Shown here: piece by piece, positions 126-42,540 of the stretch | Numbering within the stretch: the first letter of the stretch is position 1 | How the letters are laid out: each line of letters starts with the position of its first letter | Source: a virus | Length of the DNA stretch: 64,000 nucleotides | Virus record (IMG/VR): IMGVR_UViG_3300021541_000005 | Direction: 5' to 3' (one strand) | The notes under the pieces: generated by a model | Database searches by the model: none | Told to the model about the DNA's origin: nothing | Seen by the model: only the letters and a program-made list of their open reading frames with translations | Program-made: the position numbers and the translations under genes

Positions 126-133
126 TTTTTTTT

Positions 134-205
134 AGTCCTATGGTGTAATGGCAATCATGGTGGGTTTTGGTCCCGCTGACTCAGGTTCGACTCCTGATAG
201 GACTA
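134..205 (+). tRNA. tRNA-Gln(UUG), archaeal type, no encoded CCA
   Basis: Acceptor AGTCCTA/TAGGACT with A1-U72, anticodon stem GTGGG/CCCGC with loop TT-TTG-GT, T arm TCAGG-TTCGACT-CCTGA, discriminator A. Confidence 0.93.
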
Positions 206-219
206 TACAACTTTTTTTG

Positions 220-303
220 GGTAGAATAGTCAAGTGGTCAAAGACGATGTGCTTAGGACTCATTCCTTTAGTAGGTCCGCAGGTTCAAATCCTGCTTCTA
301 CCA
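220..303 (+). tRNA. tRNA-Leu(UAG), long variable arm, no encoded CCA
   Basis: Acceptor GGTAGAA/TTCTACC, D arm GTC...GAC, anticodon loop CT-TAG-GA (one T-T mismatch in stem), variable arm CCT-TTAGT-AGG, T arm GCAGG-TTCAAAT-CCTGC, discriminator A. Confidence 0.9.
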
Positions 304-4808: not shown

Positions 4809-5840
4809 ATGAGTTGTAGAGTATTTGGTTTAGAACCAGAAGCTGCCTATGGTGAGGAAGTAGACAAAGATGATTTTCACTTACTTTTTGACCATGATGT
4901 AGACAGCATGGATTTTAAACTCAATGACGAACCGGTAACCAAAAGTTTCGGTTCAAGAATGAATCAAAAAGCAAGAGCTGGAGTAATCAAACCAACAGGT
5001 AGTATAGAAACTTCAGCAAACCTCCAAATATTAGGAGCTTACTTTTACGGATTCTTAGATAATTATAAGTTCACAGCAGGCCAAAATGGTAAAAACACCC
5101 ATGAGTTCTGGGGTGGTGAATCTAAATTATTAAAAAGTTTCAGAGGAAAAGCAGTTAACGACGATTTAATTTTCTACTTAATGGGTTTAATCGTCGATTC
5201 AATGAAACTCGAAGTATCTTCAGAAGACATGACTCTTGGAACTGACTTCATTTATAAAACAGAATTCTCTCAAATTTTAGCCGGTGAAAACGATTACGAA
5301 AGAGCCGAAGAACTAGAAGATGATTTATTCATAATGTTTTACGATGTCATGTTAAAACTCAATGGTAATGACCCTGCCGGCGTGCAGACAAGTTTTACCT
5401 TCGAAGGAAGTAACAATCATGACGTTGACAAAACAATAGGCTTTGGTTACAGACATCCACAGGGACAAGCAAAAGCAGGAAAAAGAGAAAACAGTATCAG
5501 CATTGTAACTACACTTACTCAAGAAACTGTAAGAGCAATATTAGATGCAAGATACGGTGATGTAGACCTTCTTGAACCTGCAAAATGTAAAATATTACAG
5601 GTCCCATTACAAATTGATGTTGAATTATGTGAATATCCTGGCCTTGGATTAACTATTTTATTCCCTAAATGTACTCTCTTAGCTGAATTCGACAGTAGTG
5701 GTATTGATGATGTGGAAGCAACATTAAATATGGCTACATTAGGTTCTGAAGAGGTTACATTAGCCGATGGAACTACTAAGAAAACAGATATGTATGTTAA
5801 ATTAGTCAATAAACAACCTAAGATAGCTCCCAGCATCTGA
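4809..5840 (+). CDS. Major tail (tube) protein
   Basis: 343 aa; N-terminal FG---E--YG motif; two-domain tube pattern; sits before chaperone and tape measure genes. Confidence 0.78.
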   Translation: MSCRVFGLEPEAAYGEEVDKDDFHLLFDHDVDSMDFKLNDEPVTKSFGSRMNQKARAGVIKPTGSIETSANLQILGAYFYGFLDNYKFTAGQNGKNTHEFWGGESKLLKSFRGKAVNDDLIFYLMGLIVDSMKLEVSSEDMTLGTDFIYKTEFSQILAGENDYERAEELEDDLFIMFYDVMLKLNGNDPAGVQTSFTFEGSNNHDVDKTIGFGYRHPQGQAKAGKRENSISIVTTLTQETVRAILDARYGDVDLLEPAKCKILQVPLQIDVELCEYPGLGLTILFPKCTLLAEFDSSGIDDVEATLNMATLGSEEVTLADGTTKKTDMYVKLVNKQPKIAPSI

Positions 5841-6090
5841 GGTGAATCCTGAAACTATTGATGATTTAGCAATAAGCGTAACTGATGGAACAAATCCTGT
5901 AAGTCAAGTTGAAGTTGCAATAGGAGAAATCACAGGCACTACTGGTAGTCAAGGTGGATGTACCTTGCATGATGTTCCTGTAGGCACGGTTACTGTAACA
6001 GCAACTAAAACCGGTTACGTAACTTACAGTCAGGAAGTAACAATTACTTCTAGCACTGAAACTTTAGATATTACTTTAGAGCCTCAATAA
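5830..6090 (+). CDS. Ig-like (carboxypeptidase-regulatory/PEGA-like) domain, probably a +1 frameshift extension of the tail tube protein
   Basis: VTDGT-PV--V-V-IG---GTT---G---L--VP-G--TVTATKTGY pattern; +1 frame opens only after TAG at 5824-5826; CCC-A at 5829-5832; no clear independent RBS. Confidence 0.65.
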   Translation, partial: PASEVNPETIDDLAISVTDGTNPVSQVEVAIGEITGTTGSQGGCTLHDVPVGTVTVTATKTGYVTYSQEVTITSSTETLDITLEPQ

Positions 6091-6157
6091 ACCTATTATA
6101 ATATTTTTTTTTTAGAATGAGGCTAAAAACTTTTATTATTTTTCAAAATTATAAAGA

Positions 6158-6601
6158 ATGGAGGCATTTAAAATGGCAATATTAAAAAAATCACAAATTT
6201 TACAAGGTATCAACGACCCTAAAAAAATACGCATTGAAGCATTAGATGGTGAACTCTGGTTAAGACCATTATCTAATTCAGAGTTAGATGAACTTGATAA
6301 AATCGAAGCTAAAGGAATGGAATCCTACGAAACCAATAGTAAATCTCGTGGTAGAATACAAGGGGAAACCGTTGCCAAAGGAAAAATAAACGTTCATTTA
6401 GCAACTGTTAATGGTGCAAAAGCACGTGATCGTAAAATAGAAATGAGTCTTGACAATCCTAAAAATGCGGATGATCCATGGACTGAAGAGGACATTGGAA
6501 AATTACCGCGTGATGCAGTAAATGAAATCGTTGATGCAATTAATGAATTATCTGGCCTTGAGGTTACAAAAGGAGATATAGATAAATTTCCTGAAGAGTG
6601 A
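6158..6601 (+). CDS. Tail assembly chaperone (start probably ATG 6173)
   Basis: Lies between tube and tape measure genes; LRPLSNSELDEL motif; GGAGG RBS at 6160. Confidence 0.72.
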   Translation: MEAFKMAILKKSQILQGINDPKKIRIEALDGELWLRPLSNSELDELDKIEAKGMESYETNSKSRGRIQGETVAKGKINVHLATVNGAKARDRKIEMSLDNPKNADDPWTEEDIGKLPRDAVNEIVDAINELSGLEVTKGDIDKFPEE

Positions 6602-6758: not shown

Positions 6759-9700
6759 ATGGTTTCTGAAAATATTGTTAAAATTATATTAAAAATGGAA
6801 GACCAAGCCACCCAAATGGCTCAAAAAGCAGATCAAGCTATTAGTAAATTAGGTAATACAGCACAAACCTCAAATCAAAAAGCATCACAATCTGCACAAC
6901 AGTTGACTCAAAAATATGAAAGTACTAATGATAGTATTAGGCGAGTGGGTCAGGCTGTTGAAAAAGTTGGTCAAAATGGTGCTAAATCATTTAATAATAT
7001 GGGTGAGGCTACTCAAAAAGCTGTTATTAACTTTAATAGGTTAGATGAACAGTCCCAAAATGTTATTCGCCATATGGGTAATTTAGATGATGAAAGTAGA
7101 CAAACATTCCTTGGAATGTATAGTTATGCTCAGGATGCTATATCTAAATTTGATGCTTTACAAAATGAAACTAGAACTTGGGGCACAACTTTTGATTATA
7201 CTAGAAGTAAAATGCAGCTAATGGGTACTAATGTTGACTCATTAAAAGGTAAAATACAAGTTGTAGGTTCCAGTATTACAACTCATTTAGGTAATAAATG
7301 GGATACTATCAAATCAAAAGTAACTGTTTTTGGAAATTATATCACAAGCCATTTGTCTAGTGCATTATCTACTGTTAGAAGTAAAATTCAAAGTTTAGGT
7401 GATGCTTTTACTGGTATTGGTGGGGTAATCTCAACAGTATTTGGTGGGATTGGTTTAAAAGCAATGACAGATATGACAATAGGCGCATCAATTAACAGAG
7501 ATAGGATTAAATCATTATCTTTTGCAATGTTGGGTTATGGAGAGTCATTTGAATCTTTTAGCAAAGGAATATGGAAACAAATGGACTCTATGACAAATGC
7601 TAGTTTAGTGTCTTTGGATCAATTATCTCAAGCAGCATCTGTTGTAAAAATGAGCACTAATGCATCAAAAGAACAAATGAAAGAATTATTGCCTGTATTA
7701 AATGATATAGGTCAAAGAGCCATATTGATGGGTAAATCTGGTGATGAGGCCATGGGACTTATGCAGGCAGCAGGTAAAGGTCTCAACGGCGAATTTGAAA
7801 TGCTCAGAGAAAACTTTGGTATCACAAAAGAAAAACTTGAAAATGCCGGATGGAATGGTAGTGCAGAAGATATTGATGGTTATACTCAAGCATTAAAAAA
7901 GTGTTTAGCAGAAAGTGGTGACGTCAATGGTATGATGGATACTACTTCTGGGAAAATTACACGATTACAGAAAATGTGGAATGTTTCAGCTAGAAGTTTA
8001 GGTGATCAATTTAAACCAGCTCTAGATCAAGCACTAAATTCTCTACTCAAATTTCTTGATGCAGATAATAATGGAGAAATAGATAAACAGGCTCAAGGAT
8101 GGGTTCAATGTGCTGTCGGTGCTATGACAGCAGCAAGTGCTTTTGCAACATTAGCTCCATCAATCGCTCCAGCGTTACAAGTAATGGATATGTTTTTCAG
8201 TAAAGGTAGGGCAGTATTAACATTTTTAGGTTTACTTGAAGCTGAGGAGGGTGCTTTAACAGCTTCTACTTTAGCGAATACTATAGCTGAGAAAGCAAAT
8301 GCTATTGCAAAAGCAGCAAAAGGCGTTACAACAGCTGAGTTAACTGCTGAAGAGGTGGCTCTTGGTGCTGCTGAAGCAGGTTTAACTGCTGAAGAAATTG
8401 CTGCTGCGGCTGCCCATGCAGGAAGTGCTGTTGCTATGACTGCTGAAGGTGCTGCTGCTGTAACTGCTGCTGGTGGAACAACTACTTTAACTGGTGCTTT
8501 ATGGGGAATGACTACTGCATTATTGTCTAACCCTATTACATGGATTGTTGTAGCATTAGTTGCTTTGGCTGTTGCTGTTTATGAAGTAGGTAAAGCATTT
8601 GGATGGTGGAAAGATATTCCAACATTACTTGCAGCGGTTTGGTCAGGAATACAAAGGATGTGGAATGCATTTATTAATCATCCTGATGTTAAAGCAGTGA
8701 TTGGAGTTTTAGTTACTGCTTGGAATAGTCTTGTTTCTGCTATAGGATGGGTAATAAGTAAAGTTGAAGAGTTCTTTGGTATTCATATTAATGGGGAATT
8801 TGATGTTGTTCATGCTATTATCGAAGGAATTGGCGTTGCATGGCAAGTAATAACTATGCCTATCCGTACTGTAATTAGCATTATACAATTTTTAATACCT
8901 GTGTTTCAATCTGTTGCTTCAGCAGTGCAGACTGCTCAAAGTAAATTTGGTGCTTTCGGAGGATTTTTAGCTACTATGGCCTCTCCAATAATCTTTGTAT
9001 GGGAATTATTAAGAAAAATTGTATGTATATTGCTCGGTTGTAGTCCAGGTATTGTTCCAGCATTACAAAGAACTTGGGAAGTATTTCAGGAAGTATTCAA
9101 TGCTATTGCAGGATTTATTGGTGGTATTATTTCACCTATTGTGGAATCTATTAGGCCTTTAATTGATATTTTTGTGGAAATAGTAACGTATCTTGTTGAA
9201 ATGTTTATGCCTGCATGGGATTTACTCAGTAATATATTATTGGTAATCTGGAATGCAGTATCTCAGCTTATTAATATTTTCCAGGCATTTCTTAGTGGTC
9301 AAATTACTTTACCTCAAATGTTGAATATGATCTGGAATTTGATTTTGACTGCATATATGACAATTTTAACAATGATTATTAATTTTGTCTTCCAATGGGC
9401 AGGTCAAATTGTAAGTGCAGCAATTAATGCTGCTTCAGGTTTTGTTAATGGTATTATTACTTATATTAGTGGTTTACCTGGCAGATTCTTTAGTTATTTG
9501 GCTCAAACTACTAGTAATATTATTAATGCTGGTGCTCAATGGGTTAATACTGCTAGGCAAAAAGCTAGTGAAATGGTTAACAGTGCTTCAACTACTGTAC
9601 AACAATTACCCGGTAAAATTTATACGGAGTTTACTAAGGTTCCTGATCGTATACGTGAAGCTATACCTCAGGCTATAGCTGCTGCATTAAACTTTGGTAA

Positions 9701-24064: not shown

Positions 24065-25270
24065 ATGAAAAATATGAGACCTACAAATGAAATCCTAAAT
24101 GAAATATTCAGAGAACGTAACTCATCAATTAACACACAAAAATCATATGCAAGAAGTGTCAATCAATTCGAGTTATACTTCCAACAACATTTAGGAGAAA
24201 TATTAATCATTGCAGAAACAGAAGAAGATCAAGGAATACCCTGGAGAAAATCGACACTAAGACAATATCTAATAGAATTCAGAAGCTACCTATATGATAA
24301 ATACAAATCCAAGACAGCTAAATTATATCTTACATTAATAATATCTATTTTTAGGCATTTTGAATTTGTTATACCAAAATTACCACGTTTTAGTGAGGAC
24401 ATTGAAGTCATACCAATATTACCTGAAGACATTCCAGACAGGGAGATGCTTCAGAAATGTCTTGAAATAGCACCTAAGATTGTTGAAACATTCGCATTAT
24501 TCACTTCCAGTTCAGGAATGAGCAGGAGAGATGCATTGAATTTGAAAGTGAAAGATTATTTGGAAGCTACTAAAGAATATCATCATAGCAATAATGTTCA
24601 GGAAGCTATTAAAGAAATGAATTGGTCTAATGTTGATATTGTTCCTTGTTTTAGGGATTTAACACGTCAAAAAACGGGTTTACCATATTATACATTTTGC
24701 AGTCCAGAAGCTGCTAAAAGTTTGAACAATTATTTACTTAGTAGAAGAGTTTTAATCTATGCTGGTGATGGTGAGGTAATTGGATCAAGAGATGTCACGC
24801 CTGAAGATGATCTCTTTGATGTGTCATATCAATGGATAGGTGATTTGTTTGATGAAGTAAATCAAAAGTTGGGGCTCGGTAAAGCTGGTAGATATAACAG
24901 GTTTACTATTCATATGATGCGTCGTTATCATGCTACTCAGTTGCATGCTGCGGGAATGAGTGAAGATAAGATAAATCTATTGCAAGGTAGAACTCCGAAA
25001 AGTGTGATTCATGAGTCATATATTCGTGTAAAAGCAGAGGATTTGAAAGAAGAGTATATTCAAGCATTGCCATATATAGTGGTTACTGAGATTGATAAGG
25101 TGCGTACAAAGTTAGATGTTGTTACTGAAAAGAAAGAAGTGTTGGAAAATGAGAATATTGTTTTGAAAAATGAGTTATCTGATATTAAGTCTAGGCAGGA
25201 TAATCTTGAGAAATTAATCCTGGAAAATATTAGTGAGGAGCGTTTGGGTAAACTTAACAAACTAATATAA
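24065..25270 (+). CDS. int: Tyrosine recombinase (integrase)
   Basis: N-terminal SAM-like domain; SSGMSRRDALNL box I, RQKT lysine, HMMRRYHAT (HxxR), LQGR and ESY catalytic Tyr; C-terminal coiled coil. Confidence 0.9.
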   Translation: MKNMRPTNEILNEIFRERNSSINTQKSYARSVNQFELYFQQHLGEILIIAETEEDQGIPWRKSTLRQYLIEFRSYLYDKYKSKTAKLYLTLIISIFRHFEFVIPKLPRFSEDIEVIPILPEDIPDREMLQKCLEIAPKIVETFALFTSSSGMSRRDALNLKVKDYLEATKEYHHSNNVQEAIKEMNWSNVDIVPCFRDLTRQKTGLPYYTFCSPEAAKSLNNYLLSRRVLIYAGDGEVIGSRDVTPEDDLFDVSYQWIGDLFDEVNQKLGLGKAGRYNRFTIHMMRRYHATQLHAAGMSEDKINLLQGRTPKSVIHESYIRVKAEDLKEEYIQALPYIVVTEIDKVRTKLDVVTEKKEVLENENIVLKNELSDIKSRQDNLEKLILENISEERLGKLNKLI

Positions 25271-35198: not shown

Positions 35199-36668
35199 AT
35201 GGAACCCTTAACTATTGATGAATTCGCACAATTAGTAAGCAGAGGAGCTTGGAAACCATTCATACACTTATTACTAGTGGTTAAGCTATTACATTATGTA
35301 ATAGAAGGTCGCATATCACGTTTAATGGTATTCATGCCTCCAAGACATGGTAAATCTGAGCTAATAAGTTACTATTTTTTAACATGGTTCCTAGGGTGTT
35401 TTCCTGATAAACAGGTAATACTCACTACTCATAGCGCTAATTTCAGTCGTAAATGGGGTCGTAGAGTACGTAACCTTCTAGAATACATAGGAAAAGATGC
35501 ATTTGAAGTTCCTATAGTACTGGCTGAAGACAGTAAAGCTGCTCATACCTGGAACATTAAAGACCATAAAGGCGGTCTTGTCACAGCAGGTGTTGGTGGA
35601 TCTATTCTGGGTGAGGGTGCAAATGGTTTCATCATAGATGATCCAACTAAAGGTTTCAAAAAAGCAAGAAGTAAAACACATCAAAAAGAACTAAACGATT
35701 GGTGGTTTACAGAAGCTAAAACCCGTTTAAATGCAGATATTGAAGGTGGAAGTAAACCATGGGTAATAGGAATATGGCAAAGACTTAACATAGACGATTT
35801 AGCCGGTCAAATATTATACAAAAAAGAAGGAGACAAACGTGTACCAAATGAACCTCACATAACCTATCAAGAGGCTATGAGAATAATAGAGGAAGAAAAC
35901 GAGGATGTACCTTATGGAACATGGGTAATCTTAAACTTACCTGCTATAGCTGAAGAAAATGACCCGTTAGGAAGAGCTCCTGGAGAGCCATTATGGCCAG
36001 AACAAAAACCATTAGAAGAACTCCAACACATTAAAACTGAAATGGGTAGTTTCAGATTCAACGCAGTATATCAAGGAAACCCACGTGAACCTGAAGGTAA
36101 TGTATTTTTCCGTAAATGGTTTCGTAACAGTAAAATGTCACCTAAAGAAATGGATAAGCTCATTGTTAAATTACCTACATTACGATACTGGGATCTTGGA
36201 GCTTCAGGTGAGGATGGAGATCCAACAGCAGCCCTGTACACTGCATGGGATGGTGAATATATGTACATGAGAAAACTCTTACATAAAGGATTAACCCCAT
36301 TACAGGTTGAAAAATACTTCCTAGACACTACTCTACGTGATGGTAAAAGTACACGTGTTAAAATAGAGCAAGAACCTGGTGCATCACCTAAAGTTTTAAT
36401 CAATAACTTAGCACGTAGAAAAGAATTCAAAGGTTATAGTATAAGGCCGGATAGAGTAAGGGATTATGGTGATAAATTAACACGTAGTTTTGACTTGCAG
36501 GCATTAGCAGAGGCTGATAAAGTACGTATTTCAGAAGATATTTTTGACATGGTGGTTGATGAATTAGTTGAATTCACTGGTGAGGAAGGAGGCCAGGACA
36601 ATATCACAGATGTAGCAACTGGTTCTGCCCGCCATTGGAAGCGTAGACGAGCTAAAATACACGCATAA
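35199..36668 (+). CDS. terL: Terminase large subunit
   Basis: Walker A MPPRHGKS, Walker B FIIDD, YQG-P, nuclease WDLG..D and DNITDV. Confidence 0.95.
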   Translation: MEPLTIDEFAQLVSRGAWKPFIHLLLVVKLLHYVIEGRISRLMVFMPPRHGKSELISYYFLTWFLGCFPDKQVILTTHSANFSRKWGRRVRNLLEYIGKDAFEVPIVLAEDSKAAHTWNIKDHKGGLVTAGVGGSILGEGANGFIIDDPTKGFKKARSKTHQKELNDWWFTEAKTRLNADIEGGSKPWVIGIWQRLNIDDLAGQILYKKEGDKRVPNEPHITYQEAMRIIEEENEDVPYGTWVILNLPAIAEENDPLGRAPGEPLWPEQKPLEELQHIKTEMGSFRFNAVYQGNPREPEGNVFFRKWFRNSKMSPKEMDKLIVKLPTLRYWDLGASGEDGDPTAALYTAWDGEYMYMRKLLHKGLTPLQVEKYFLDTTLRDGKSTRVKIEQEPGASPKVLINNLARRKEFKGYSIRPDRVRDYGDKLTRSFDLQALAEADKVRISEDIFDMVVDELVEFTGEEGGQDNITDVATGSARHWKRRRAKIHA

Positions 36669-36695: not shown

Positions 36696-38303
36696 ATGGT
36701 TAAATCAGAATCATGGATAGTAACAGTAGACGAAACTACTGGTGACGTTAAAGATGTTATAAGCGAAATTGAAATGGGCAAATATGCTATAAAAGCAGAT
36801 GTTGACCCTACTACGGGGAGTAAACAAACACCTAGTGATCATTATGCTCATGGAATAACAGTTATTGACCCGAAATATAATCCTTATAATTTAATTGAAT
36901 TATTAGATTTGTATAGTTATCATGCTGATTGTGTTGATGCTGTTGCAACAGACGCCAGTGGTGTAGATTATACATTGAAACCTATTGAAGGAAAAGATGA
37001 AGTTGAAAGTGAGAAAATAAGATTCACAGAAATATTAGATAATAGTAAACCTTCAATTAATATTCACATTCACCGTATGATTTATGACCGTAGAAGCATA
37101 GGCTATGGTGCAATGGAAGTAATAAGAGAATCCACTAGTAAATCACCTATAACACGTTTAAAACACATACCATCACACACATTACGCCGTCATACAGACA
37201 TGAAAAGAGTATTATACACAGATGACACAGGAAAAAAAGTCTGGTATGTGCTATATGGTAAAAATTACGATGATGATGGAAATCCAGTTGATGTTCATAT
37301 GAAGACAGGTGAATTCCATCCATATAATAGTTTAAGCATGGAAGAAAAAGCTAATGAATTATTATGGACTATGGAGTATGCTCCAGGAACAAATTATTAT
37401 GGTAGACCACCAATTATAGCTACATTACCATCCATACAATCTGATTTAGCTGCGGTACGTTATAATACTACTTTTTTCCAGAATTATGGTATGCCAGCAT
37501 TCGCAGTCACAGTAACTGGAGATTTCCAAGATTACGAGGAAGAGAAATATATAAAAGACGATGATGGACGTGAAATTCTCAATCCCGATTATGATGAAAA
37601 ACAAACTTTAAGATACCAAATATCACAGCAAGTAAAAGAAGTAATACGCAATCCACATTCAGCTATTTGTATTACAGTACCATCTGAAGGAGTAGACGGA
37701 GATGTAGAAATTAAAATCACTCAATTAAGTGTTGACGTTAAAGAAGGCTCTTTCAGAATGATGAAAAAAGACATACGTGATGAAGTAATACACGCTCACC
37801 AGGTTGACCCTTCACGTTTAGGTATTTTTGACAGTGGCAATTTAAATGGTACTAATTCTGAAGTCACTAAAGCATCCTATAAGTATGGTACTATTGCACC
37901 AATTAAAACTGAAGTTGAATCTATGATAAATCAGATAGCAGCTGAATTAAAAGTGACTAGTTGGAAATTTGTTATTAATGATGTGGATCCAATTGACCAT
38001 AGCCCACGTAAAGATTTAGCTGATTTTTTATTTGCACGTGGTGCAATGACTATTATGGATCTGATTAATAATTTTGGTGATGAATTCGGTTTGGCTGTTG
38101 ATGACCCAAATGACCCTTATTTGAACAGTAGATTCATTAATAATATCCCGTTGGAGCAAGTTTTCAATCAATCAGAACAGAATAGTTACTTGGAAGAAAA
38201 GAGTATTTTGAAGGCTTTGGATGGTAATCTCTGGCAAGACTCTGAAGAGGATGATGATTTTTTAGGAGTTAACAATGACACAGGAATTGGAGAAACAGAT
38301 TAA
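36696..38303 (+). CDS. Portal protein
   Basis: Follows terL; YYGRPP, FFQNYGMP and AHQVDP-RLG motifs of HK97/PBSX-type portals. Confidence 0.92.
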   Translation: MVKSESWIVTVDETTGDVKDVISEIEMGKYAIKADVDPTTGSKQTPSDHYAHGITVIDPKYNPYNLIELLDLYSYHADCVDAVATDASGVDYTLKPIEGKDEVESEKIRFTEILDNSKPSINIHIHRMIYDRRSIGYGAMEVIRESTSKSPITRLKHIPSHTLRRHTDMKRVLYTDDTGKKVWYVLYGKNYDDDGNPVDVHMKTGEFHPYNSLSMEEKANELLWTMEYAPGTNYYGRPPIIATLPSIQSDLAAVRYNTTFFQNYGMPAFAVTVTGDFQDYEEEKYIKDDDGREILNPDYDEKQTLRYQISQQVKEVIRNPHSAICITVPSEGVDGDVEIKITQLSVDVKEGSFRMMKKDIRDEVIHAHQVDPSRLGIFDSGNLNGTNSEVTKASYKYGTIAPIKTEVESMINQIAAELKVTSWKFVINDVDPIDHSPRKDLADFLFARGAMTIMDLINNFGDEFGLAVDDPNDPYLNSRFINNIPLEQVFNQSEQNSYLEEKSILKALDGNLWQDSEEDDDFLGVNNDTGIGETD

Positions 38304-41300
38304 ACATATTAATAATAGTTTATTTGCTGCTAAAATGGAAAATATCATACAATACATGTATGAAGAGGAATTAAAAACAAGTGTAGCTGGAATATTCCAT
38401 AGTATCCGTACAGAAATACTCAAGAATCTTGAAGAGTATTACGGTGATGTGCTGTTTAATGCACACATGGATTTAATATTAGCACCCATACATGAGCATC
38501 ACAAACAATACTATGACACCATAATGAAATACAAGCTCAAAGAGCATAGAAAAGGACGTGTTCAAGGAAAAAGATTAATTGCACGTGCTAAACAGTACGC
38601 CAAACAATACAGTAAAGCTTATTATGGTGGTGCTGTTAAAGAGGACACGATTAATGTTCCTATGAATAGCATAATCAAGAAAGATGAATTATTTGCTACT
38701 TCAGACTACAGTGCTGAACAAATGCGTGACAAGACATTTGTTGCAAGTGAAAACACCTTAGCACGTGTAGATAAAGATATTAACGGCATAATCACAGATG
38801 GCTACCGTGATGGATGGGGTATAAACGATGTAGCTAACAAGATAGAAACCCGTTTCAACCAGCTAGAAACATGGGAAGCACGACGCATAGCAAGAACCGA
38901 AATACACGGGTCACATATGCAAGGAGTAATGAACTCATATGAAGACATGGGCGTAGAATACTTACAATGGGGAGCAGCACATGACAACCGTACACGTGAC
39001 ACACATGCAGCATTAGACGGTGAAATCATACCCTGGAACGGTGTTTTCAGTAATGGTTTAAGGTATCCTGGAGATACAAATGGTCCGATTAGTGAGTGGA
39101 TTAATTGTCGTTGTGGTGTTTTACCGTGGTTTTGTCCTCCTGGTATGATGGTGCCTGTGGGTATGTCTAATTTTAGGGAGTCTGATTTATTACCTTTAGG
39201 AACATTAGGAACCGGTGGAGACTTATTAACACAATTCCAAGATGAAGTCTCAGCAATACCAAAACAATCATCATCTTTTGACTTAGACATTATTAATCCT
39301 AAATTAATTGATTCTAAATTCTCAATACCTAATGAAGATTTATCAGAATTTGGAATAACTGAAAAAGGAATGGAAACAATTCAAAGATATACTAAACGTA
39401 GAATTGGCTCTGATATAGAATATGGTGTAGTATTCAATGAGAAAAACGGTAAATTCTTATCTAAAGAATTTAAAGGAGCTAGTAATGATATAGTATTAAC
39501 CAAACCAAATGGAAAATATAGTACAATACACTACCATACTGATGAGGGTTTTAGACCTACATCTTCAGGAGATTTCTTTGAATTCTTAAACTCAAAAAAT
39601 GAACGTGTAGGAATAAATATCTCAAGAAAAGAATCATGGTTCATAAAAAATGAAGGCAAATTAACTTCTAAAGAAATTAATAAAATAACTGTAGATATTG
39701 ATAGATTAGAACAAAAACAATTAAAAAAGTTAACCGATGAATATCGTAAGTCATCACTTAAAATTAATAAGATTAAAGACCCTGTTAAAAGACAATCCGC
39801 TCAAAAAGAATTTGAAAAATATGTTGCAAATGAATTCTTAGACAAACATAATAAAGAATTAGGTGATGCAATACTTGAATATACATCAAATATCAAAGGA
39901 TTAAAAGTAAAAAGAGTAATGCATACAGAAATAAATCCAAAATCTATTAAAACAATAAGTAAAAAAGAATTAAAAGTAGATAAAAGAAGTTTTGAAGAGT
40001 TAACTGGTGTTAAAAGACATTCAACACCAATTAATAATAAAGACTATAATAAATATGCTTTGACATCGGTTGAAGAAAAAACATTAGCAAAATTAGAAGC
40101 TGAAAAAGATTCATTAGGTATGATAGAAAAACGTAGTTATAAGGAATTGGCAGATAGAAAAGAATTCAACTCATTATGGAATAAAATATTACGTGAAGGA
40201 GGAAATCCTAATGATGTAATGGAGCTATCTGGGGGAGAGGGTGTAAGATATGAAAAATTAATGAAAAAATTCAAAGATTGGACTCCAAAAGGCGACATTG
40301 AAATAAAACCAATACAAATTAACAAAAAAACTATTTTTAAAGATAAAGATGCATTCAAATTAACATCTGAAGAAAAACAAGCATACAAAAAACTTAAAAA
40401 GAACAAAGGTAGCTTGTCAACGGATGAAAAAGAATACTACTCTCAATTATCAACTAAATTACAACTCCATCAAAAACATCAAGAATTGATTGGAAACGGT
40501 TTGAGTGAAACTAAATCTAAAACATATGTTGAATTGTATTCTCGATATCGAAAACAATGGAATTTACCTGAATTATCCCTTGATTTAAAATTCACTACAC
40601 AACAAAAATCATTTATTTCATATGATTATTATAAGAATGCTACAGAATTTAAACTTACTAAAAAAGAAGCAGATAAATTATATGAATTAGAGAAAAAACA
40701 ATTATACGGACGAAAATTAACTTCAAATGAATTAAAAACAATGGATGAATTACATAATCAACAAAGATTCATTTACTTGAATAATATTAATCAAACAGAA
40801 AAAGGTTTAGATTATGATGCTACTATTGAGTTTAAAAAATTATATAAATCATTAAAAACAAAACTTAAATTAGATAAAAGTGTTTTAGAGCAACCTTTAA
40901 CAGGGTATGAATCTAAAATTTCTTTAGATAAAAATCCTAAGAATTTAAAAACATTTAAAGGCACTAATGAGGAAGGTTTACTCCCGAATGGTGAATCCTT
41001 AGAAAAGTATTTCACTAAAGATGCACGTGAAATGACCATACGTGAACAAAAAGTAGCGGATAGATGGTTGGGTTCGGATTATAAAGCATTCACTAACTTT
41101 GAAGTGGATTGTGGGCGTGATGTTAAGAAATTCGAGAAATGGATTTATGACATGGCCAAAGCATACAAAGAAGACAATTCATTAAAATATTATCAGTATT
41201 ATTATGATGAAATAACCAGGAGAACAGGTAGAATATCAAAATCTGAAGCTAAAAAATTAGCAGAATCTATTGCTCATGATGTGCCTGTTTTAGATGATAT

Positions 41301-41700
41301 ATTAAATAATCAATTGAAAGAAGGTATGACATTATGGCGTGTACAAGAGAATCATAATTTAAGTTCCACCACGATTGGTGAGGTTATGGATTTCCCTAAT
41401 TTCAGATCTACAGCTATTTCCAAAGAAGGGGCATTATGGTTCAGTAAAACTAACGCTAAAGAGATGAATTATTTAATTGAAATTGAGGCTCCAGCAGGTA
41501 CTAAAGGAGCATATTTAGCTCCAATAAAACAAGGAGAAATAATAAATCCAACATCTCCTTTCGTAGGAGAGAAATATGCGAATGAAATGGAATTTTTATT
41601 AAAAAAATCTAAAGTAGAGTTGGTTAAATTCGAGGATAAAACTGTTAAAGGTGCTAATGGTGAAAAATTAAAACATATACTGTTAAGAATAGTGGGATGA
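38275..41700 (+). CDS. MuF (SPP1 gp7-like) head protein fused to a JAB-like domain, helical repeats and a C-terminal VIP2-type ADP-ribosyltransferase
   Basis: RRIARTE, D-RTR-TH---DG and INCRC MuF motifs; E...HYH-x8-S-xx-D; ART triad LWR, FRSTA and EME. Confidence 0.88.
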   Translation: MTQELEKQIKHINNSLFAAKMENIIQYMYEEELKTSVAGIFHSIRTEILKNLEEYYGDVLFNAHMDLILAPIHEHHKQYYDTIMKYKLKEHRKGRVQGKRLIARAKQYAKQYSKAYYGGAVKEDTINVPMNSIIKKDELFATSDYSAEQMRDKTFVASENTLARVDKDINGIITDGYRDGWGINDVANKIETRFNQLETWEARRIARTEIHGSHMQGVMNSYEDMGVEYLQWGAAHDNRTRDTHAALDGEIIPWNGVFSNGLRYPGDTNGPISEWINCRCGVLPWFCPPGMMVPVGMSNFRESDLLPLGTLGTGGDLLTQFQDEVSAIPKQSSSFDLDIINPKLIDSKFSIPNEDLSEFGITEKGMETIQRYTKRRIGSDIEYGVVFNEKNGKFLSKEFKGASNDIVLTKPNGKYSTIHYHTDEGFRPTSSGDFFEFLNSKNERVGINISRKESWFIKNEGKLTSKEINKITVDIDRLEQKQLKKLTDEYRKSSLKINKIKDPVKRQSAQKEFEKYVANEFLDKHNKELGDAILEYTSNIKGLKVKRVMHTEINPKSIKTISKKELKVDKRSFEELTGVKRHSTPINNKDYNKYALTSVEEKTLAKLEAEKDSLGMIEKRSYKELADRKEFNSLWNKILREGGNPNDVMELSGGEGVRYEKLMKKFKDWTPKGDIEIKPIQINKKTIFKDKDAFKLTSEEKQAYKKLKKNKGSLSTDEKEYYSQLSTKLQLHQKHQELIGNGLSETKSKTYVELYSRYRKQWNLPELSLDLKFTTQQKSFISYDYYKNATEFKLTKKEADKLYELEKKQLYGRKLTSNELKTMDELHNQQRFIYLNNINQTEKGLDYDATIEFKKLYKSLKTKLKLDKSVLEQPLTGYESKISLDKNPKNLKTFKGTNEEGLLPNGESLEKYFTKDAREMTIREQKVADRWLGSDYKAFTNFEVDCGRDVKKFEKWIYDMAKAYKEDNSLKYYQYYYDEITRRTGRISKSEAKKLAESIAHDVPVLDDILNNQLKEGMTLWRVQENHNLSSTTIGEVMDFPNFRSTAISKEGALWFSKTNAKEMNYLIEIEAPAGTKGAYLAPIKQGEIINPTSPFVGEKYANEMEFLLKKSKVELVKFEDKTVKGANGEKLKHILLRIVG

Positions 41701-41704
41701 TAAA

Positions 41705-42025
41705 ATGAAAAGAGCAGAAATTATTAATATAAACTATTTGATTGATCATGCTGAAGATATTATAAATAACACTACTGTTCTATTTCCTCAATGGTTGTGG
41801 CGTAGATCCAAATGTTCTGATGATGGTGAGCAGTTGCAGGATATTTGGGATCGTATGTATCAAAAACATCAAAGAGAAAGTGGCAATTGGTATATTTTCG
41901 GTAGAGGTGATCCTTGGATTAACCCTGGTGAAACATGGGACGAAGCTCAAGACCGCATAGTCAGAGAATATTGTGAAGCCACTGGCCACTGGGATTTATT
42001 CATATGGAAAGAGGTGAAAGAATGA
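41705..42025 (+). CDS. Small Trp-rich protein, candidate immunity protein
   Basis: Starts 4 nt after the MuF-ART stop; function inferred from position only. Confidence 0.55.
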   Translation: MKRAEIININYLIDHAEDIINNTTVLFPQWLWRRSKCSDDGEQLQDIWDRMYQKHQRESGNWYIFGRGDPWINPGETWDEAQDRIVREYCEATGHWDLFIWKEVKE

Positions 42026-42540
42026 AAGTACTTCAATTTGATTCACATTTCATCAATGATCATATGGATGAATTAGTTCATTTGGAAGACTATGTACCAG
42101 AAATATTATTTAGTTATTATGATAAGCAAAATGAACGTGATAGATTCTTAAAATCTAAAAATTTATTAGAAACTATACATAAGATAGATCAATTATTGGA
42201 TGAAAAATGTAAACTTTCAAAAAATCCAATTATGATAAGGAATAGTATTATCATTGAATGGTTAGATTGTCATCCTGAATTTGAAGGAATAATAGCTGGG
42301 GAATTCTGGGAAAAGTATCAAATGATGAAAAATAATAATGATTTTATTGAGTTTATTGATCTTTTATCTCAATTCAAATTTGCTTCTGAAGAACAAATTA
42401 TAGCAAAATATGAATATCGTAATGATGTTATTCATAAAGATGATTCTAATAGAATGTTTCCTGATTTTAAAAAAATTGATGCTATTTTTAATAAATATGG
42501 GGCTTCTTTATTAGCATGTTATTTATCAGAGTTTGTTTAA
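42022..42540 (+). CDS. Hypothetical protein, second candidate immunity or orphan gene
   Basis: GAGGTGA RBS before ATG 42022; ATGA overlap. Confidence 0.55.
   Translation: MKVLQFDSHFINDHMDELVHLEDYVPEILFSYYDKQNERDRFLKSKNLLETIHKIDQLLDEKCKLSKNPIMIRNSIIIEWLDCHPEFEGIIAGEFWEKYQMMKNNNDFIEFIDLLSQFKFASEEQIIAKYEYRNDVIHKDDSNRMFPDFKKIDAIFNKYGASLLACYLSEFV

What the first reader, a model, noticed from the sequence alone, without database searches (positions are those of the whole stretch)
39410..39640. JAB/JAMM-like metallo-isopeptidase motif inside the MuF toxin
Seen: IEYGVVF...IHYHTDEGFRPTSSGD gives E...H-x-H-x8-S-x2-D (HYH at 39529-39537, Asp at 39571-39573), one residue longer than the canonical JAMM spacing. 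Established: JAMM enzymes cleave ubiquitin-like conjugates, including archaeal SAMPs, and ubiquitin-like conjugation is part of some antiviral systems (CBASS Cap2/Cap3, Bil). Inference: the virion protein carries two effector domains, and the JAB-like one could remove ubiquitin-like tags as counter-defence or process the ART off the head protein.
Basis: partly seen in the sequence, partly recalled or inferred. Interest (0 to 1): 0.7.

Follow-up and report, generated by a model that had tools for sequence, protein, structure and literature searches.

The report
JAB zinc-enzyme domain in viral MuF protein
A head protein of a virus of gut methanogens (Methanobrevibacter) carries a real, apparently active JAB/MPN-type zinc-hydrolase domain between its capsid anchor and an ADP-ribosyltransferase toxin; the domain is the usual cargo of such head proteins in these viruses, so it is probably an injected effector in its own right, and its target is still unknown.

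Summary
Gene 38275-41700 (+) encodes a 1141-aa MuF protein with E382, H419-Y-H421, S430 and D433 at the stated coordinates. About 60 homologues all keep HxH-x6-8-S-x2-D. Those residues are the invariant columns of a 21-sequence alignment whose members are 19-86% identical to the window domain.

An AlphaFold model of residues 340-550 (pLDDT 94.7) matches JAB/MPN structures almost exclusively: PfJAMM1 Z 7.0, then Rpn11 homologue, AMSH, Cap3 and RadC. Among viral models it matches 'minor capsid proteins' and the NCLDV and Xanthomonas-phage proteins that Zhang et al. 2012 called Tox-JAB-2. So the fold is JAB, in a clade that Pfam, PHROGs and NCBIfam do not cover.

The functional reading is only partly supported. 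Most relatives are MuF+JAB alone (450-580 aa), in terminase-portal-MuF modules of Methanobacteriaceae viruses. JAB is therefore not there mainly to cut off the ART. Nothing links it to ubiquitin-like tags.

The best reading is a virion-delivered, Tox-JAB-like hydrolase effector in a polyvalent MuF toxin.

New here: a related stand-alone family, with Asp replaced by Asn, fills Methanobrevibacter chromosomes. A conserved acidic micro-ORF follows the MuF-JAB genes.

The scan had already noted MuF-JAB fusions on other DNA, and this same gene from another window.

The parts
38275..41700 (+). Whole gene: 1141-aa polyvalent minor head protein, MuF - JAB - three helical repeats - ART
   Evidence: ORF list and translation. 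It sits directly after the large terminase (35199-36668) and the portal (36696-38303).
38776..39120 (+). MuF (SPP1 gp7-like) capsid and portal anchor domain, residues 168-282
   Evidence: Pfam PF04233, E 2.9e-13, 51 bits, above the cut-off. TIGR01641, E 3.4e-13. PHROG head-morphogenesis families.
39337..39921 (+). JAB/MPN-fold metallohydrolase domain, residues about 355-549
   Evidence: AF2 model pLDDT 94.7, pTM 0.89. VIA matches: PfJAMM1 Z 7.0 / 3.1 A / 108 residues, Rpn11 homologue 6.3, AMSH 6.2, Cap3 5.7, RadC 5.5. DUF4329 below threshold, E 1.9e-4. Stand-alone homologues end right after the last strand.
39418..39420 (+). E382, predicted general base (the JAMM Glu), just before the first core strand
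   Evidence: At least 90% conserved. It lies immediately before strand 44-48 of the model.
39529..39537 (+). H419-Y-H421, predicted zinc ligands at the end of a beta-strand
   Evidence: Invariant columns. They are at the end of strand 76-81 of the model.
39562..39573 (+). S430-S-G-D433: Ser and the third zinc ligand Asp, at the start of the following helix
   Evidence: Invariant in viral members. Helix 92-100 of the model starts here. Asp is replaced by Asn in the cellular paralogue clade.
39631..39639 (+). E453-S-W455, a family-specific conserved motif in the beta-hairpin after the Asp helix
   Evidence: W455 is invariant and E453 at least 90% conserved. Its role is unknown.
39667..39885 (+). 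Long helical hairpin inserted in the JAB fold, residues 465-537; the chain then returns as the last beta-strand
   Evidence: Model helices 126-159 and 164-198, then strand 204-210. Shared with viral structural relatives that align over 190-230 columns.
40036..40887 (+). Three tandem three-helix repeats of about 100 aa, each opening with [YF]xLTxxE, separated by disordered linkers
   Evidence: AF2 model of residues 551-905: three helix triplets with pLDDT 80-95 and linkers below 50. No PDB match. No Pfam or PHROG match.
41164..41646 (+). C-terminal ADP-ribosyltransferase (exoenzyme/VIP2-type), residues 964-1124
   Evidence: PF03496, E 1.2e-8, 35 bits against a cut-off of 23.4. Weak hit to the Vis ART structure 4xzj.
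41705..42025 (+). 106-aa ORF directly downstream: candidate immunity or partner gene, no known family
   Evidence: No Pfam or PHROG match. Present in all three loci that carry the identical gene. No homologue behind the other MuF-JAB-X genes examined.
42004..42540 (+). 178-aa ORF. Its N-terminal half of about 100 aa is related to the small gene that follows MuF-JAB-X genes with other C-terminal ends
   Evidence: BLASTP: 53% identical to L077_175; 25% to L077_108 (E 5.7e-4), which links on to L076_113 (E 4e-6).

Best explanation
Residues about 355-549 form a catalytically intact JAB/MPN+ zinc hydrolase. It belongs to a divergent clade that no curated library covers, and its nearest described relative is Tox-JAB-2/DUF4329. 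In head-tailed viruses of Methanobacteriaceae this domain is the standard cargo fused to, or encoded just behind, the MuF minor head protein. This Methanobrevibacter virus lineage has added three helical repeats and an ART behind it, which makes a polyvalent MuF toxin.

Proposed mechanism. Shown: the MuF part is encoded in the terminase-portal-MuF block. Inferred from SPP1 gp7 and Mu F, and from the MuF-toxin model of Jamet 2017 and Iyer 2017: MuF anchors a few copies at the portal inside the capsid, and the protein leaves with the DNA at infection. Inferred from motif and fold: once in the host cell the JAB module, with Zn held by H419, H421 and D433 and water activated by E382, hydrolyses a host substrate. 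A peptide or isopeptide bond is the most likely substrate. It acts independently of the ART.

In the producing cell the domain is probably held in check by a small partner protein, because a conserved acidic micro-ORF or a small gene follows MuF-JAB genes. The substrate is not known.
For: Motif at the stated coordinates. E, HxH, S and D are the most conserved columns in alignments with members 19-86% identical to the window domain, and about 60 members keep them.

The AF2 model has pLDDT 94.7, and the motif residues sit where JAMM ligands sit: Glu before a core strand, HxH at a strand end, S..D at a helix start. The top five of 48,161 PDB representatives are all JAB/MPN. Of Foldseek's top chains, 46 reach Z of at least 5, nearly all JAB/MPN. 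The Foldseek PDB hits are weak but dominated by JAB. In BFVD, hits at E 1e-8 to 1e-4 go to 'minor capsid proteins' and to FV3 3R, IIV3 229L, ASFV F317L and Xop411 p25, which is the Tox-JAB-2 range named in PMC3482391. DUF4329 scores E 1.9e-4. The ESM Atlas nearest named clusters are Prok-JAB, DUF4329 and Toxin-JAB1.

MuF+JAB-only architecture in at least 24 proteins, inside terminase-portal-MuF modules of siphovirus- and myovirus-type contigs. A stand-alone JAB gene lies right behind a short MuF gene. The micro-ORF MSNS..ELDD[ST]xFE overlaps the stop of MuF-JAB genes in four independent loci. The host is a methanogen: named Methanobrevibacter cluster members, and genome G001, which has MCR beta, carries a 78% identical copy. 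MuF-ART fusions and MuF-delivered effectors are established concepts (PMC5576092, PMC5512222, PMC9503650).
Against: No activity, metal content or packaging was measured. Structural Z scores are middling (7.0 at best), in the range the tool warns can be a common arrangement; the fold call rests on the agreement of ranking, motif placement and conservation. The DUF4329 hit is below Pfam's gathering score, and only 2 of 21 members show it. Ejection of MuF cargo has not been demonstrated for any archaeal virus. The partner-protein idea rests on gene order and a short shared motif only. In this window the JAB is internal, and no micro-ORF of that type follows it.
Confidence: 0.6

Rival explanations
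1. First reader, version 1: the JAB is a virion-delivered isopeptidase that strips ubiquitin-like tags (SAMP/Urm1-like conjugates, or Bil- or Cap2-type conjugates) as counter-defence.
For: The best PDB match is P. furiosus JAMM1, free and bound to SAMP2 (Z 7.0, 3.1 A, 108 residues). Cap3 (Z 5.7) and BubCD (Z 5.8) are also among the neighbours. The host is an archaeon, a group with SAMP-type modifiers (own knowledge).
Against: The Z values are tied within about 1 with RadC, Prp8 MPN and others. No Ubl, E1 or E2 gene was seen beside any member. The nearest sequence and viral-structure relatives are the Tox-JAB-2 set, said by its describers to lack the Ubl-tail groove residues.
Confidence: 0.15
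2. First reader, version 2: the JAB is a cis-acting processing protease that frees the cargo (ART, or itself) from the MuF anchor.
For: Peptidases in polyvalent proteins have been proposed to release domains (PMC5512222). Disordered linkers flank the helical repeats. A conserved ILREGG-NP stretch in the long forms recalls a Ubl-like tail.
Against: At least 24 relatives have no domain behind the JAB, so releasing an ART cannot be the family's function. The REGG stretch is absent from the shorter MuF-JAB-ART and MuF-JAB-X forms. Known JAMM enzymes cleave isopeptide or Ubl-tail bonds, not ordinary linkers (own knowledge).
Confidence: 0.12
3. The JAB targets the pseudomurein wall. It would be a metallo-isopeptidase that cuts the epsilon- or gamma-linked peptide bridges of Methanobacteriales cell walls, helping genome entry; the cellular paralogues would be wall-remodelling or wall-binding proteins.
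For: In the phylum sample the family was found only in family f1 (61 of 314 genomes, 0 of 15 in the other families). Many cellular paralogues start with a hydrophobic, signal-like segment. Internal head proteins with wall-cutting domains are known in phages, for example T7 gp16 (own knowledge), and PMC5512222 discusses virion-borne wall enzymes.
Against: The same fold with the same hairpin occurs in uncultured phage minor capsid proteins and in NCLDV proteins whose hosts have no pseudomurein. The cellular clade has lost the Asp ligand. No wall-binding repeat is fused. The signal peptides were judged by eye only.
Confidence: 0.1
4. The JAB acts on nucleic acids or nucleotides, as proposed (not shown) for RadC and the Tox-JAB clades.
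For: Most members have an HNH[PT]...PS..D signature, like RadC. RadC 2qlc scores Z 5.5. Zhang 2012 and Iyer 2017 argue for a nuclease-like role for these clades.
Against: No JAB domain has been shown to cleave nucleic acid in the papers read. No DNA- or RNA-binding domain is fused next to it. No RadC Pfam hit, even at E 0.1.
Confidence: 0.1
5. Chance motif in a non-enzymatic spacer of the MuF protein.
For: The bare regular expression occurs in 0.7% of shuffles. No curated family passes its threshold.
Against: Invariant motif residues across about 60 homologues, a confident model, and structural neighbours that are only JAB.
Confidence: 0.02

Closest known systems
Tox-JAB-2 / DUF4329 (Pfam PF14220), the JAB toxin domain of polymorphic toxins (Zhang et al. 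2012, PMC3482391)
   Same: E, HxH, S, D signature. It is the only Pfam family hit at E 0.1 or better whose matched stretch covers the motif region (E 1.9e-4). The structural relatives in BFVD are the viruses listed for Tox-JAB-2: iridoviruses, other NCLDVs and Xanthomonas OP1-type phage. It is used as a delivered toxin or effector module.
   Different: Below Pfam's gathering score (21.8 against 28.6 bits), and seen in only 2 of 21 members. The middle residue is N or Y, not S or T. It is fused to MuF rather than to RHS, T6SS or T7SS carriers. It is in archaeal viruses. It has a long helical hairpin that the 116-position Pfam model does not cover.
JAMM/MPN+ isopeptidases (PfJAMM1 5ld9/5lda, AfJAMM 1r5x/1oi0, Rpn11, CSN5, AMSH, CBASS Cap3 9ild)
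   Same: Fold. The Glu, HxH, Ser and Asp sit on the same secondary-structure elements. These are the best PDB matches.
   Different: 7-15% identity. Spacing x8 (x6-8 in the family) rather than x7. No Pfam JAB or Prok-JAB hit. No Ubl partner or conjugation genes nearby. The helical hairpin insert. Isopeptidase activity untested.
RadC-like JAB domains (PF04002; PDB 2qlc), also found in polyvalent proteins of phages and plasmids (Iyer et al. 2017, PMC5512222)
   Same: HNHP...PS..D-type signature in most family members. It occurs in virion-delivered multidomain proteins. Z 5.5.
   Different: No RadC Pfam hit at E 0.1. Different spacing. Extra hairpin.
MuF polymorphic toxins and polyvalent proteins of temperate phages (Jamet et al. 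2017, PMC5576092; Iyer et al. 2017)
   Same: An N-terminal MuF after the portal gene, C-terminal enzymatic cargo including ART, small downstream genes, and a temperate element (integrase-like gene; prophage copies in genomes).
   Different: JAB is not mentioned at all in the main text of Jamet 2017 (0 occurrences). Here there are two enzyme modules in one chain. The host is an archaeon, whereas the described MuF toxins are from bacteria.

Membership tests
JAB/MPN+ (JAMM) metalloenzyme superfamily | MPN fold (a central beta-sheet flanked by helices) | tested here: met
   AF2 model pLDDT 94.7. The top five of 48,161 PDB representatives are all JAB/MPN, best Z 7.0, rmsd 3.1 A, 108 of 129 residues. 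46 chains reach Z of at least 5, nearly all JAB/MPN. The Z values are moderate.
JAB/MPN+ (JAMM) metalloenzyme superfamily | E-x(n)-H-x-H-x(7)-S-x(2)-D motif, conserved | tested here: met
   E382, H419, H421, S430 and D433 are present and are invariant or at least 90% conserved. Spacing is x8 here and x6-8 across the family.
JAB/MPN+ (JAMM) metalloenzyme superfamily | Zinc binding and hydrolytic activity | not testable with these tools
   Needs protein.
JAMM deubiquitinase / de-SAMPylase subgroup | A groove for the Ubl C-terminal tail, and an associated Ubl or conjugation genes | tested here: inconclusive
   No Ubl, E1 or E2 gene in any neighbourhood read. The groove itself could not be examined.
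Tox-JAB-2 / DUF4329 (PF14220) | Score above the Pfam gathering threshold | tested here: not met
   21.8 bits against a cut-off of 28.6. Only 2 of 21 members hit at E 0.1 or better.
Tox-JAB-2 / DUF4329 (PF14220) | E, H[ST]H, S, D signature, and relatives in NCLDVs and Xanthomonas phages | tested here: inconclusive
   The signature is present, but with N or Y between the two His. BFVD structural hits to FV3 3R, IIV3 229L, ASFV F317L and Xop411 p25 at E 1e-4 to 4e-2.
RadC (PF04002) | Pfam match, and the HNHPSG-x4-PS-x2-D signature | tested here: inconclusive
   No Pfam hit at E 0.1. A similar signature with other spacing. 2qlc scores Z 5.5.
MuF polymorphic toxin / polyvalent virion protein | N-terminal MuF domain encoded after the portal gene | tested here: met
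   PF04233, E 2.9e-13. The portal, PF04860, lies directly upstream.
MuF polymorphic toxin / polyvalent virion protein | C-terminal toxin or effector domain shared with other toxin systems | tested here: met
   ART, PF03496, E 1.2e-8. The C-terminal part varies among relatives while MuF-JAB stays: lengths of 703, 791, 873 and about 1140 aa, with unrelated sequence after the JAB in the 873-aa form; PF03496 is found in the 703-aa and the 1141-aa forms.
MuF polymorphic toxin / polyvalent virion protein | A cognate immunity gene downstream | tested here: inconclusive
   Two small ORFs follow (41705-42025 and 42004-42540). One is related to genes behind other MuF-JAB-X genes. No protective function was tested.
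MuF polymorphic toxin / polyvalent virion protein | Packaged in the virion and ejected into the host | not testable with these tools
   Inferred from MuF biology only.

The most novel reading that the evidence does not exclude
The domain founds a Methanobacteriaceae-centred branch of JAB enzymes with a substrate peculiar to these archaea. The substrate would be either the isopeptide bridges of pseudomurein or SAMP-type conjugates. The virus delivers the active (Asp) form from its capsid, and the host has domesticated and multiplied an Asp-to-Asn form (up to 6 copies per genome, many with signal-like N-termini and their own 70-aa partner) as decoy, inhibitor or wall-binding proteins in an arms race with these viruses.
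Probability: 0.12. Interest if true: 0.8.

Novelty: new variant of a known kind. Interest (0 to 1): 0.5.

Why it matters
MuF-carried toxins are described for bacterial temperate phages. Here the same delivery logic appears in viruses of the main human and ruminant gut methanogens, and JAB is the default cargo. No Tox-JAB-like domain has a demonstrated substrate in the papers I could read. The window protein offers a compact domain with a confident model and clear point-mutant controls (E382, H419, H421, D433). It also comes with a natural Asp-to-Asn paralogue series in the host. If the target proves to be a Ubl conjugate or pseudomurein, that would reveal a new step in archaeal virus entry or counter-defence. 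If the domain is a toxin held by a micro-protein, it adds an effector-inhibitor pair to the very small toolkit for Methanobrevibacter.

Tried and rejected
- PDB sequence searches found no JAB entry: the whole protein gave 0 hits, and profiles A2 and A3 gave only a weak ART hit and noise.
- INPHARED phages: megablast and three tblastn searches with JAB parts of three family members found nothing. One of my queries was out of frame and was corrected.
- PHROGs has no family for the JAB part, the repeats or the downstream ORFs. NCBIfam has only MuF.
- Foldseek against the PDB gave nothing at E 0.001 or better. VIA was needed.
- Host domain check: MCR alpha C-terminal domain was not found in G001, which first suggested a non-methanogen. 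MCR beta at E 5.5e-130 and no sigma-70 above the cut-off settled it as a methanogenic archaeon. The archaeal amoA search was uninformative because the controls did not ring.
- I considered a Ubl-like tail, ILREGG-NP, behind the JAB as a cis-cleavage site. It is conserved only in the ~1120-1144-aa forms and absent from the 703- and 873-aa forms, so it cannot explain the family.
- I looked in the window for the 70-aa partner motif of the cellular paralogues. There was none.
- Middle region 551-905: no PDB fold match.
- Literature: no paper found on MuF toxins in methanogen viruses, nor on a tested Tox-JAB-2 activity.
- The careful tree did not finish, so the quick IQ-TREE tree was used.
Full report
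WHAT IS THERE

The window is a 42,415-bp circular virus genome written past its end: bases 1-21,585 equal 42,416-64,000 with no mismatch, and GC is 34%. The gene in question, 38275-41700 (+), follows the large terminase (35199-36668) and the portal (36696-38303, PF04860) and encodes 1141 residues.

Its N-terminus is a MuF/SPP1-gp7 domain (PF04233, residues 168-282, E 2.9e-13; TIGR01641). Its C-terminus is an ADP-ribosyltransferase (PF03496, E 1.2e-8 when residues 901-1141 are scanned alone).

E382 is at 39418-39420, H419-Y-H421 at 39529-39537, S430 at 39562-39564 and D433 at 39571-39573. That gives E...HxH-x8-S-x2-D.

IS IT MORE THAN CHANCE?

The bare pattern occurs in 0.7% of shuffles of this protein. 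Conservation is the stronger argument.

- An exhaustive phmmer search of 1.84 billion representatives with residues 340-550 found 19 real relatives. The other four hits are low-complexity repeats.
- A profile search added 28 more.
- In a 21-sequence alignment with members 19-86% identical to the window domain, the only invariant columns are G401, H419, H421, S430, D433 and W455. E382, G384, G392 and E453 are at least 90% conserved.
- Every real member keeps HxH-x6-8-S-x2-D, mostly as HNH[TP]...[PF]S..D.

The 'one residue too long' spacing is therefore ordinary variation within this family.

FOLD

AlphaFold2 on residues 340-550 with that alignment gave pLDDT 94.7 and pTM 0.89. The motif residues sit as in JAMM enzymes: Glu just before a core strand, HxH at the end of a strand, and S..D at the start of the next helix. 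A beta-hairpin carrying the family's E-x-W follows. Then comes a long helical hairpin (residues 465-537), and a last strand returns to the sheet. Stand-alone homologues end right after that strand, which fixes the domain boundary near residue 549.

- Against 48,161 PDB representatives, the five best matches are all JAB/MPN: PfJAMM1 Z 7.0 (3.1 A, 108 residues), Sst2 6.0, Cap3 5.7, RadC 5.5 and Rpn11 5.3.
- A second look at Foldseek's list gave 46 chains with Z of at least 5, nearly all JAB/MPN.
- Foldseek E-values against the PDB are weak, 0.05 at best, but dominated by JAB.
- Against predicted viral structures the matches are significant, E 1e-8 to 1e-4. They are 'minor capsid proteins' of uncultured Siphoviridae and Myoviridae (480-630 aa), small uncharacterised phage proteins, and NCLDV proteins: FV3 3R, IIV3 229L, pithovirus and algal-virus proteins, ASFV F317L, and Xanthomonas phage Xop411 p25.

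That viral set is the host range Zhang et al. 2012 gave for Tox-JAB-2, which they equate with Pfam DUF4329 (PMC3482391). DUF4329 is also the only Pfam family that touches the motif region, though below threshold (E 1.9e-4, 21.8 against 28.6 bits). The ESM Atlas nearest named clusters are Prok-JAB, DUF4329 and Toxin-JAB1 (leads only).

No PHROG, NCBIfam or PDB sequence covers the domain. I conclude that the fold is JAB/MPN+ with an intact catalytic set, in a clade no curated library covers, nearest to Tox-JAB-2.

HOST

- Cluster members of close homologues are named Methanobrevibacter sp..
- The nearest held genome, G001, shares 33% of the window's sampled 31-mers and carries a 78% identical copy of the protein.
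- G001 has MCR beta (E 5.5e-130) and no sigma-70 above the cut-off.

So this is a temperate Methanobrevibacter virus. An integrase-like gene lies at 24065-25270.

WHAT THE RELATIVES SAY ABOUT FUNCTION

Most relatives are 450-580-aa proteins made of MuF plus this domain and nothing else. They sit in terminase-portal-MuF-protease/scaffold-capsid blocks of both siphovirus-like and sheath-bearing contigs. Several of those contigs also carry a TFIIB-type zinc-ribbon gene. In L005 the JAB is a separate 254-aa gene that overlaps the end of a 206-aa MuF gene. The lineage of the window keeps MuF-JAB and varies what follows. The forms are 703 aa with an ART, 791 aa, 873 aa with unrelated sequence after the JAB, and about 1120-1144 aa with three helical repeats and the ART.

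Hence JAB is the constant cargo and the ART is an add-on. No Ubl, E1 or E2 gene lies beside any member I read.

SMALL PARTNER GENES

A conserved acidic micro-ORF, MSNS[ND]..[VI]ELDD[ST]xFE.LD, 24-33 aa long, overlaps the stop codon of the MuF-JAB (or JAB) gene in four independent loci: L005, L010, L011 and L016. L012 has a different acidic micro-ORF.

In the window's lineage, a domain of about 100 aa with a [FW][LV][DE]..P[EQ]F..II motif follows the gene in loci whose C-terminal parts differ. It is the N-terminal half of 42004-42540 here. BLAST links the copies in L077 and L076; L075_114 shares only the motif.

This fits the 'effector plus keeper' logic of MuF toxins, but I could not test binding.

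A FAMILY IN THE HOST CHROMOSOMES (NEW HERE)

The domain profile hits 61 of 329 genomes of the phylum. All are in G001's family, including 51 of 103 species of its genus, with up to 6 copies per genome. Most hits are stand-alone ORFs of 200-290 aa.

- In 48 of 55 sampled, the Asp ligand is Asn (HNHP-x5-PS-x2-N), while Glu, both His and Ser are kept. All 58 viral or prophage copies keep Asp.
- In a quick maximum-likelihood tree the Asn forms make one clade (SH-aLRT 93), sister to or nested among viral branches.
- Many start with a hydrophobic, signal-like segment, and are followed by a conserved 70-73-aa ORF, which is fused to the JAB-like protein in one case.
- One copy sits in conserved synteny between a KH-domain protein and topoisomerase VI B/A, so it is chromosomal and not prophage.

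What these proteins do is open.

MECHANISM AND ODDS

I commit to this reading. The protein is a virion-delivered, Tox-JAB-like zinc hydrolase. MuF anchors it at the portal. It is ejected with the DNA and acts on a host substrate, most likely a peptide or isopeptide bond, independently of the ART. The producer cell probably masks it with a small partner. Confidence is 0.6 overall, and about 0.9 for 'real, intact JAB-fold enzyme'.

Rivals:
- Ubl/SAMP deconjugation, 0.15. The top PDB match is the SAMP2-cleaving JAMM1, but its Z is tied with others and there is no context support.
- Cis-processing, 0.12.
- Pseudomurein isopeptidase for entry, 0.1. Supported by the family's restriction to Methanobacteriaceae in my sample and by the signal-like paralogues. 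Weakened by structural relatives in phages and NCLDVs.
- Nucleic-acid or nucleotide hydrolase as proposed for RadC and Tox-JAB, 0.1.
- Chance motif, 0.02.

COMPARISON AND NOVELTY

The kind is known: MuF polymorphic toxins and polyvalent proteins (Jamet 2017; Iyer 2017), MuF-ART fusions (Iyer 2022), and JAB toxin domains (Zhang 2012). What differs is the following.

- JAB is not mentioned in the main text of Jamet 2017 (0 occurrences).
- This clade is in no curated library.
- The host is an archaeon.
- The chain carries two enzymes.
- The host has an expanded Asp-to-Asn paralogue family.

Earlier notes of this scan describe MuF-JAB fusions with tiny partner ORFs in other genomes, and a follow-up on this same gene from another window reached a similar verdict. 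I used these as leads only, and I checked the micro-ORF idea on my own loci.

Noticed in passing
L025:7944-8678 (-), L028:7932-8582 and 9000-9617 (-), L030:7911-8558 (-), and about 50 more loci, L019-L074: A multi-copy chromosomal family of stand-alone JAB-like proteins (200-290 aa) in Methanobrevibacter: 51 of 103 species, up to 6 copies per genome. The zinc-ligand Asp is replaced by Asn in 48 of 55 sampled. They form one clade, and many have signal-like N-termini. One copy lies in conserved synteny between a KH protein and topoisomerase VI.
   Followed up: partly
L025:7730-7951 (-), L030:7690-7908 (-), L029:8949-9161 (-); fused at the C-terminus of L029:7734-8564: A conserved 70-73-aa ORF directly follows the cellular JAB-like genes (motif [DN]P..[LV][ST]G..R[LV]..[FL]) and is fused to the JAB-like protein in one case. 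This is a two-gene module of unknown function.
   Followed up: partly
L005:6345-6434, L010:11451-11555, L011:8614-8715, L016:2162-2239, L012:11872-12000: An acidic micro-ORF, MSNS[ND]..[VI]ELDD[ST]xFE.LD (24-33 aa), overlaps the stop codon of MuF-JAB or JAB genes in four independent viral or prophage loci. L012 has a different acidic 42-aa ORF. It is a candidate inhibitor or immunity peptide.
   Followed up: partly
window 42004-42540 (+); L077:6160-6486 and 7707-8234; L076:6438-6779; L075:6636-6980: A domain of about 100 aa with a [FW][LV][DE]..P[EQ]F..II motif follows the MuF-JAB-X gene in loci with different C-terminal parts X. BLAST links the window, L077 and L076 copies; L075 shares only the motif. 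It goes with the constant MuF-JAB part, or is simply a head-module gene. Its N-terminus (LQFDSHF) faintly resembles the micro-ORF core (ELDDSxF).
   Followed up: partly
window 40036-40887 (+): Three tandem three-helix repeats of about 100 aa, each starting [YF]xLTxxE, lie between JAB and ART, separated by disordered linkers. No Pfam, PHROG or PDB match.
   Followed up: partly
L005:5023-5643 and 5594-6358: The MuF (206 aa) and JAB (254 aa) reading frames overlap by 50 nt, where relatives have one fused gene. It may be a true split, a programmed frameshift or an assembly error. Separately, 791-aa forms in Methanobrevibacter MAGs begin just before the JAB and lack MuF.
   Followed up: no
L005:123-383, L010:5188-5418, L011:2603-2851: A small TFIIB-type zinc-ribbon gene (PF08271) recurs upstream of the terminase in three of the viral contigs that carry MuF-JAB.
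   Followed up: no
window 133-206 and 220-303 (+): The virus encodes tRNA-Gln(UUG) and tRNA-Leu(UAG) side by side.
   Followed up: no
L030:4007-4708 (-) in genome G001: An ORF with a canonical-looking JAMM motif (HSHP-x6-PS-x2-D, x7 spacing; 233 aa) lies 3 kb from one of the Asn-type paralogues. The family profile does not hit it, so the viral clade is not a recent copy of this gene.
   Followed up: no
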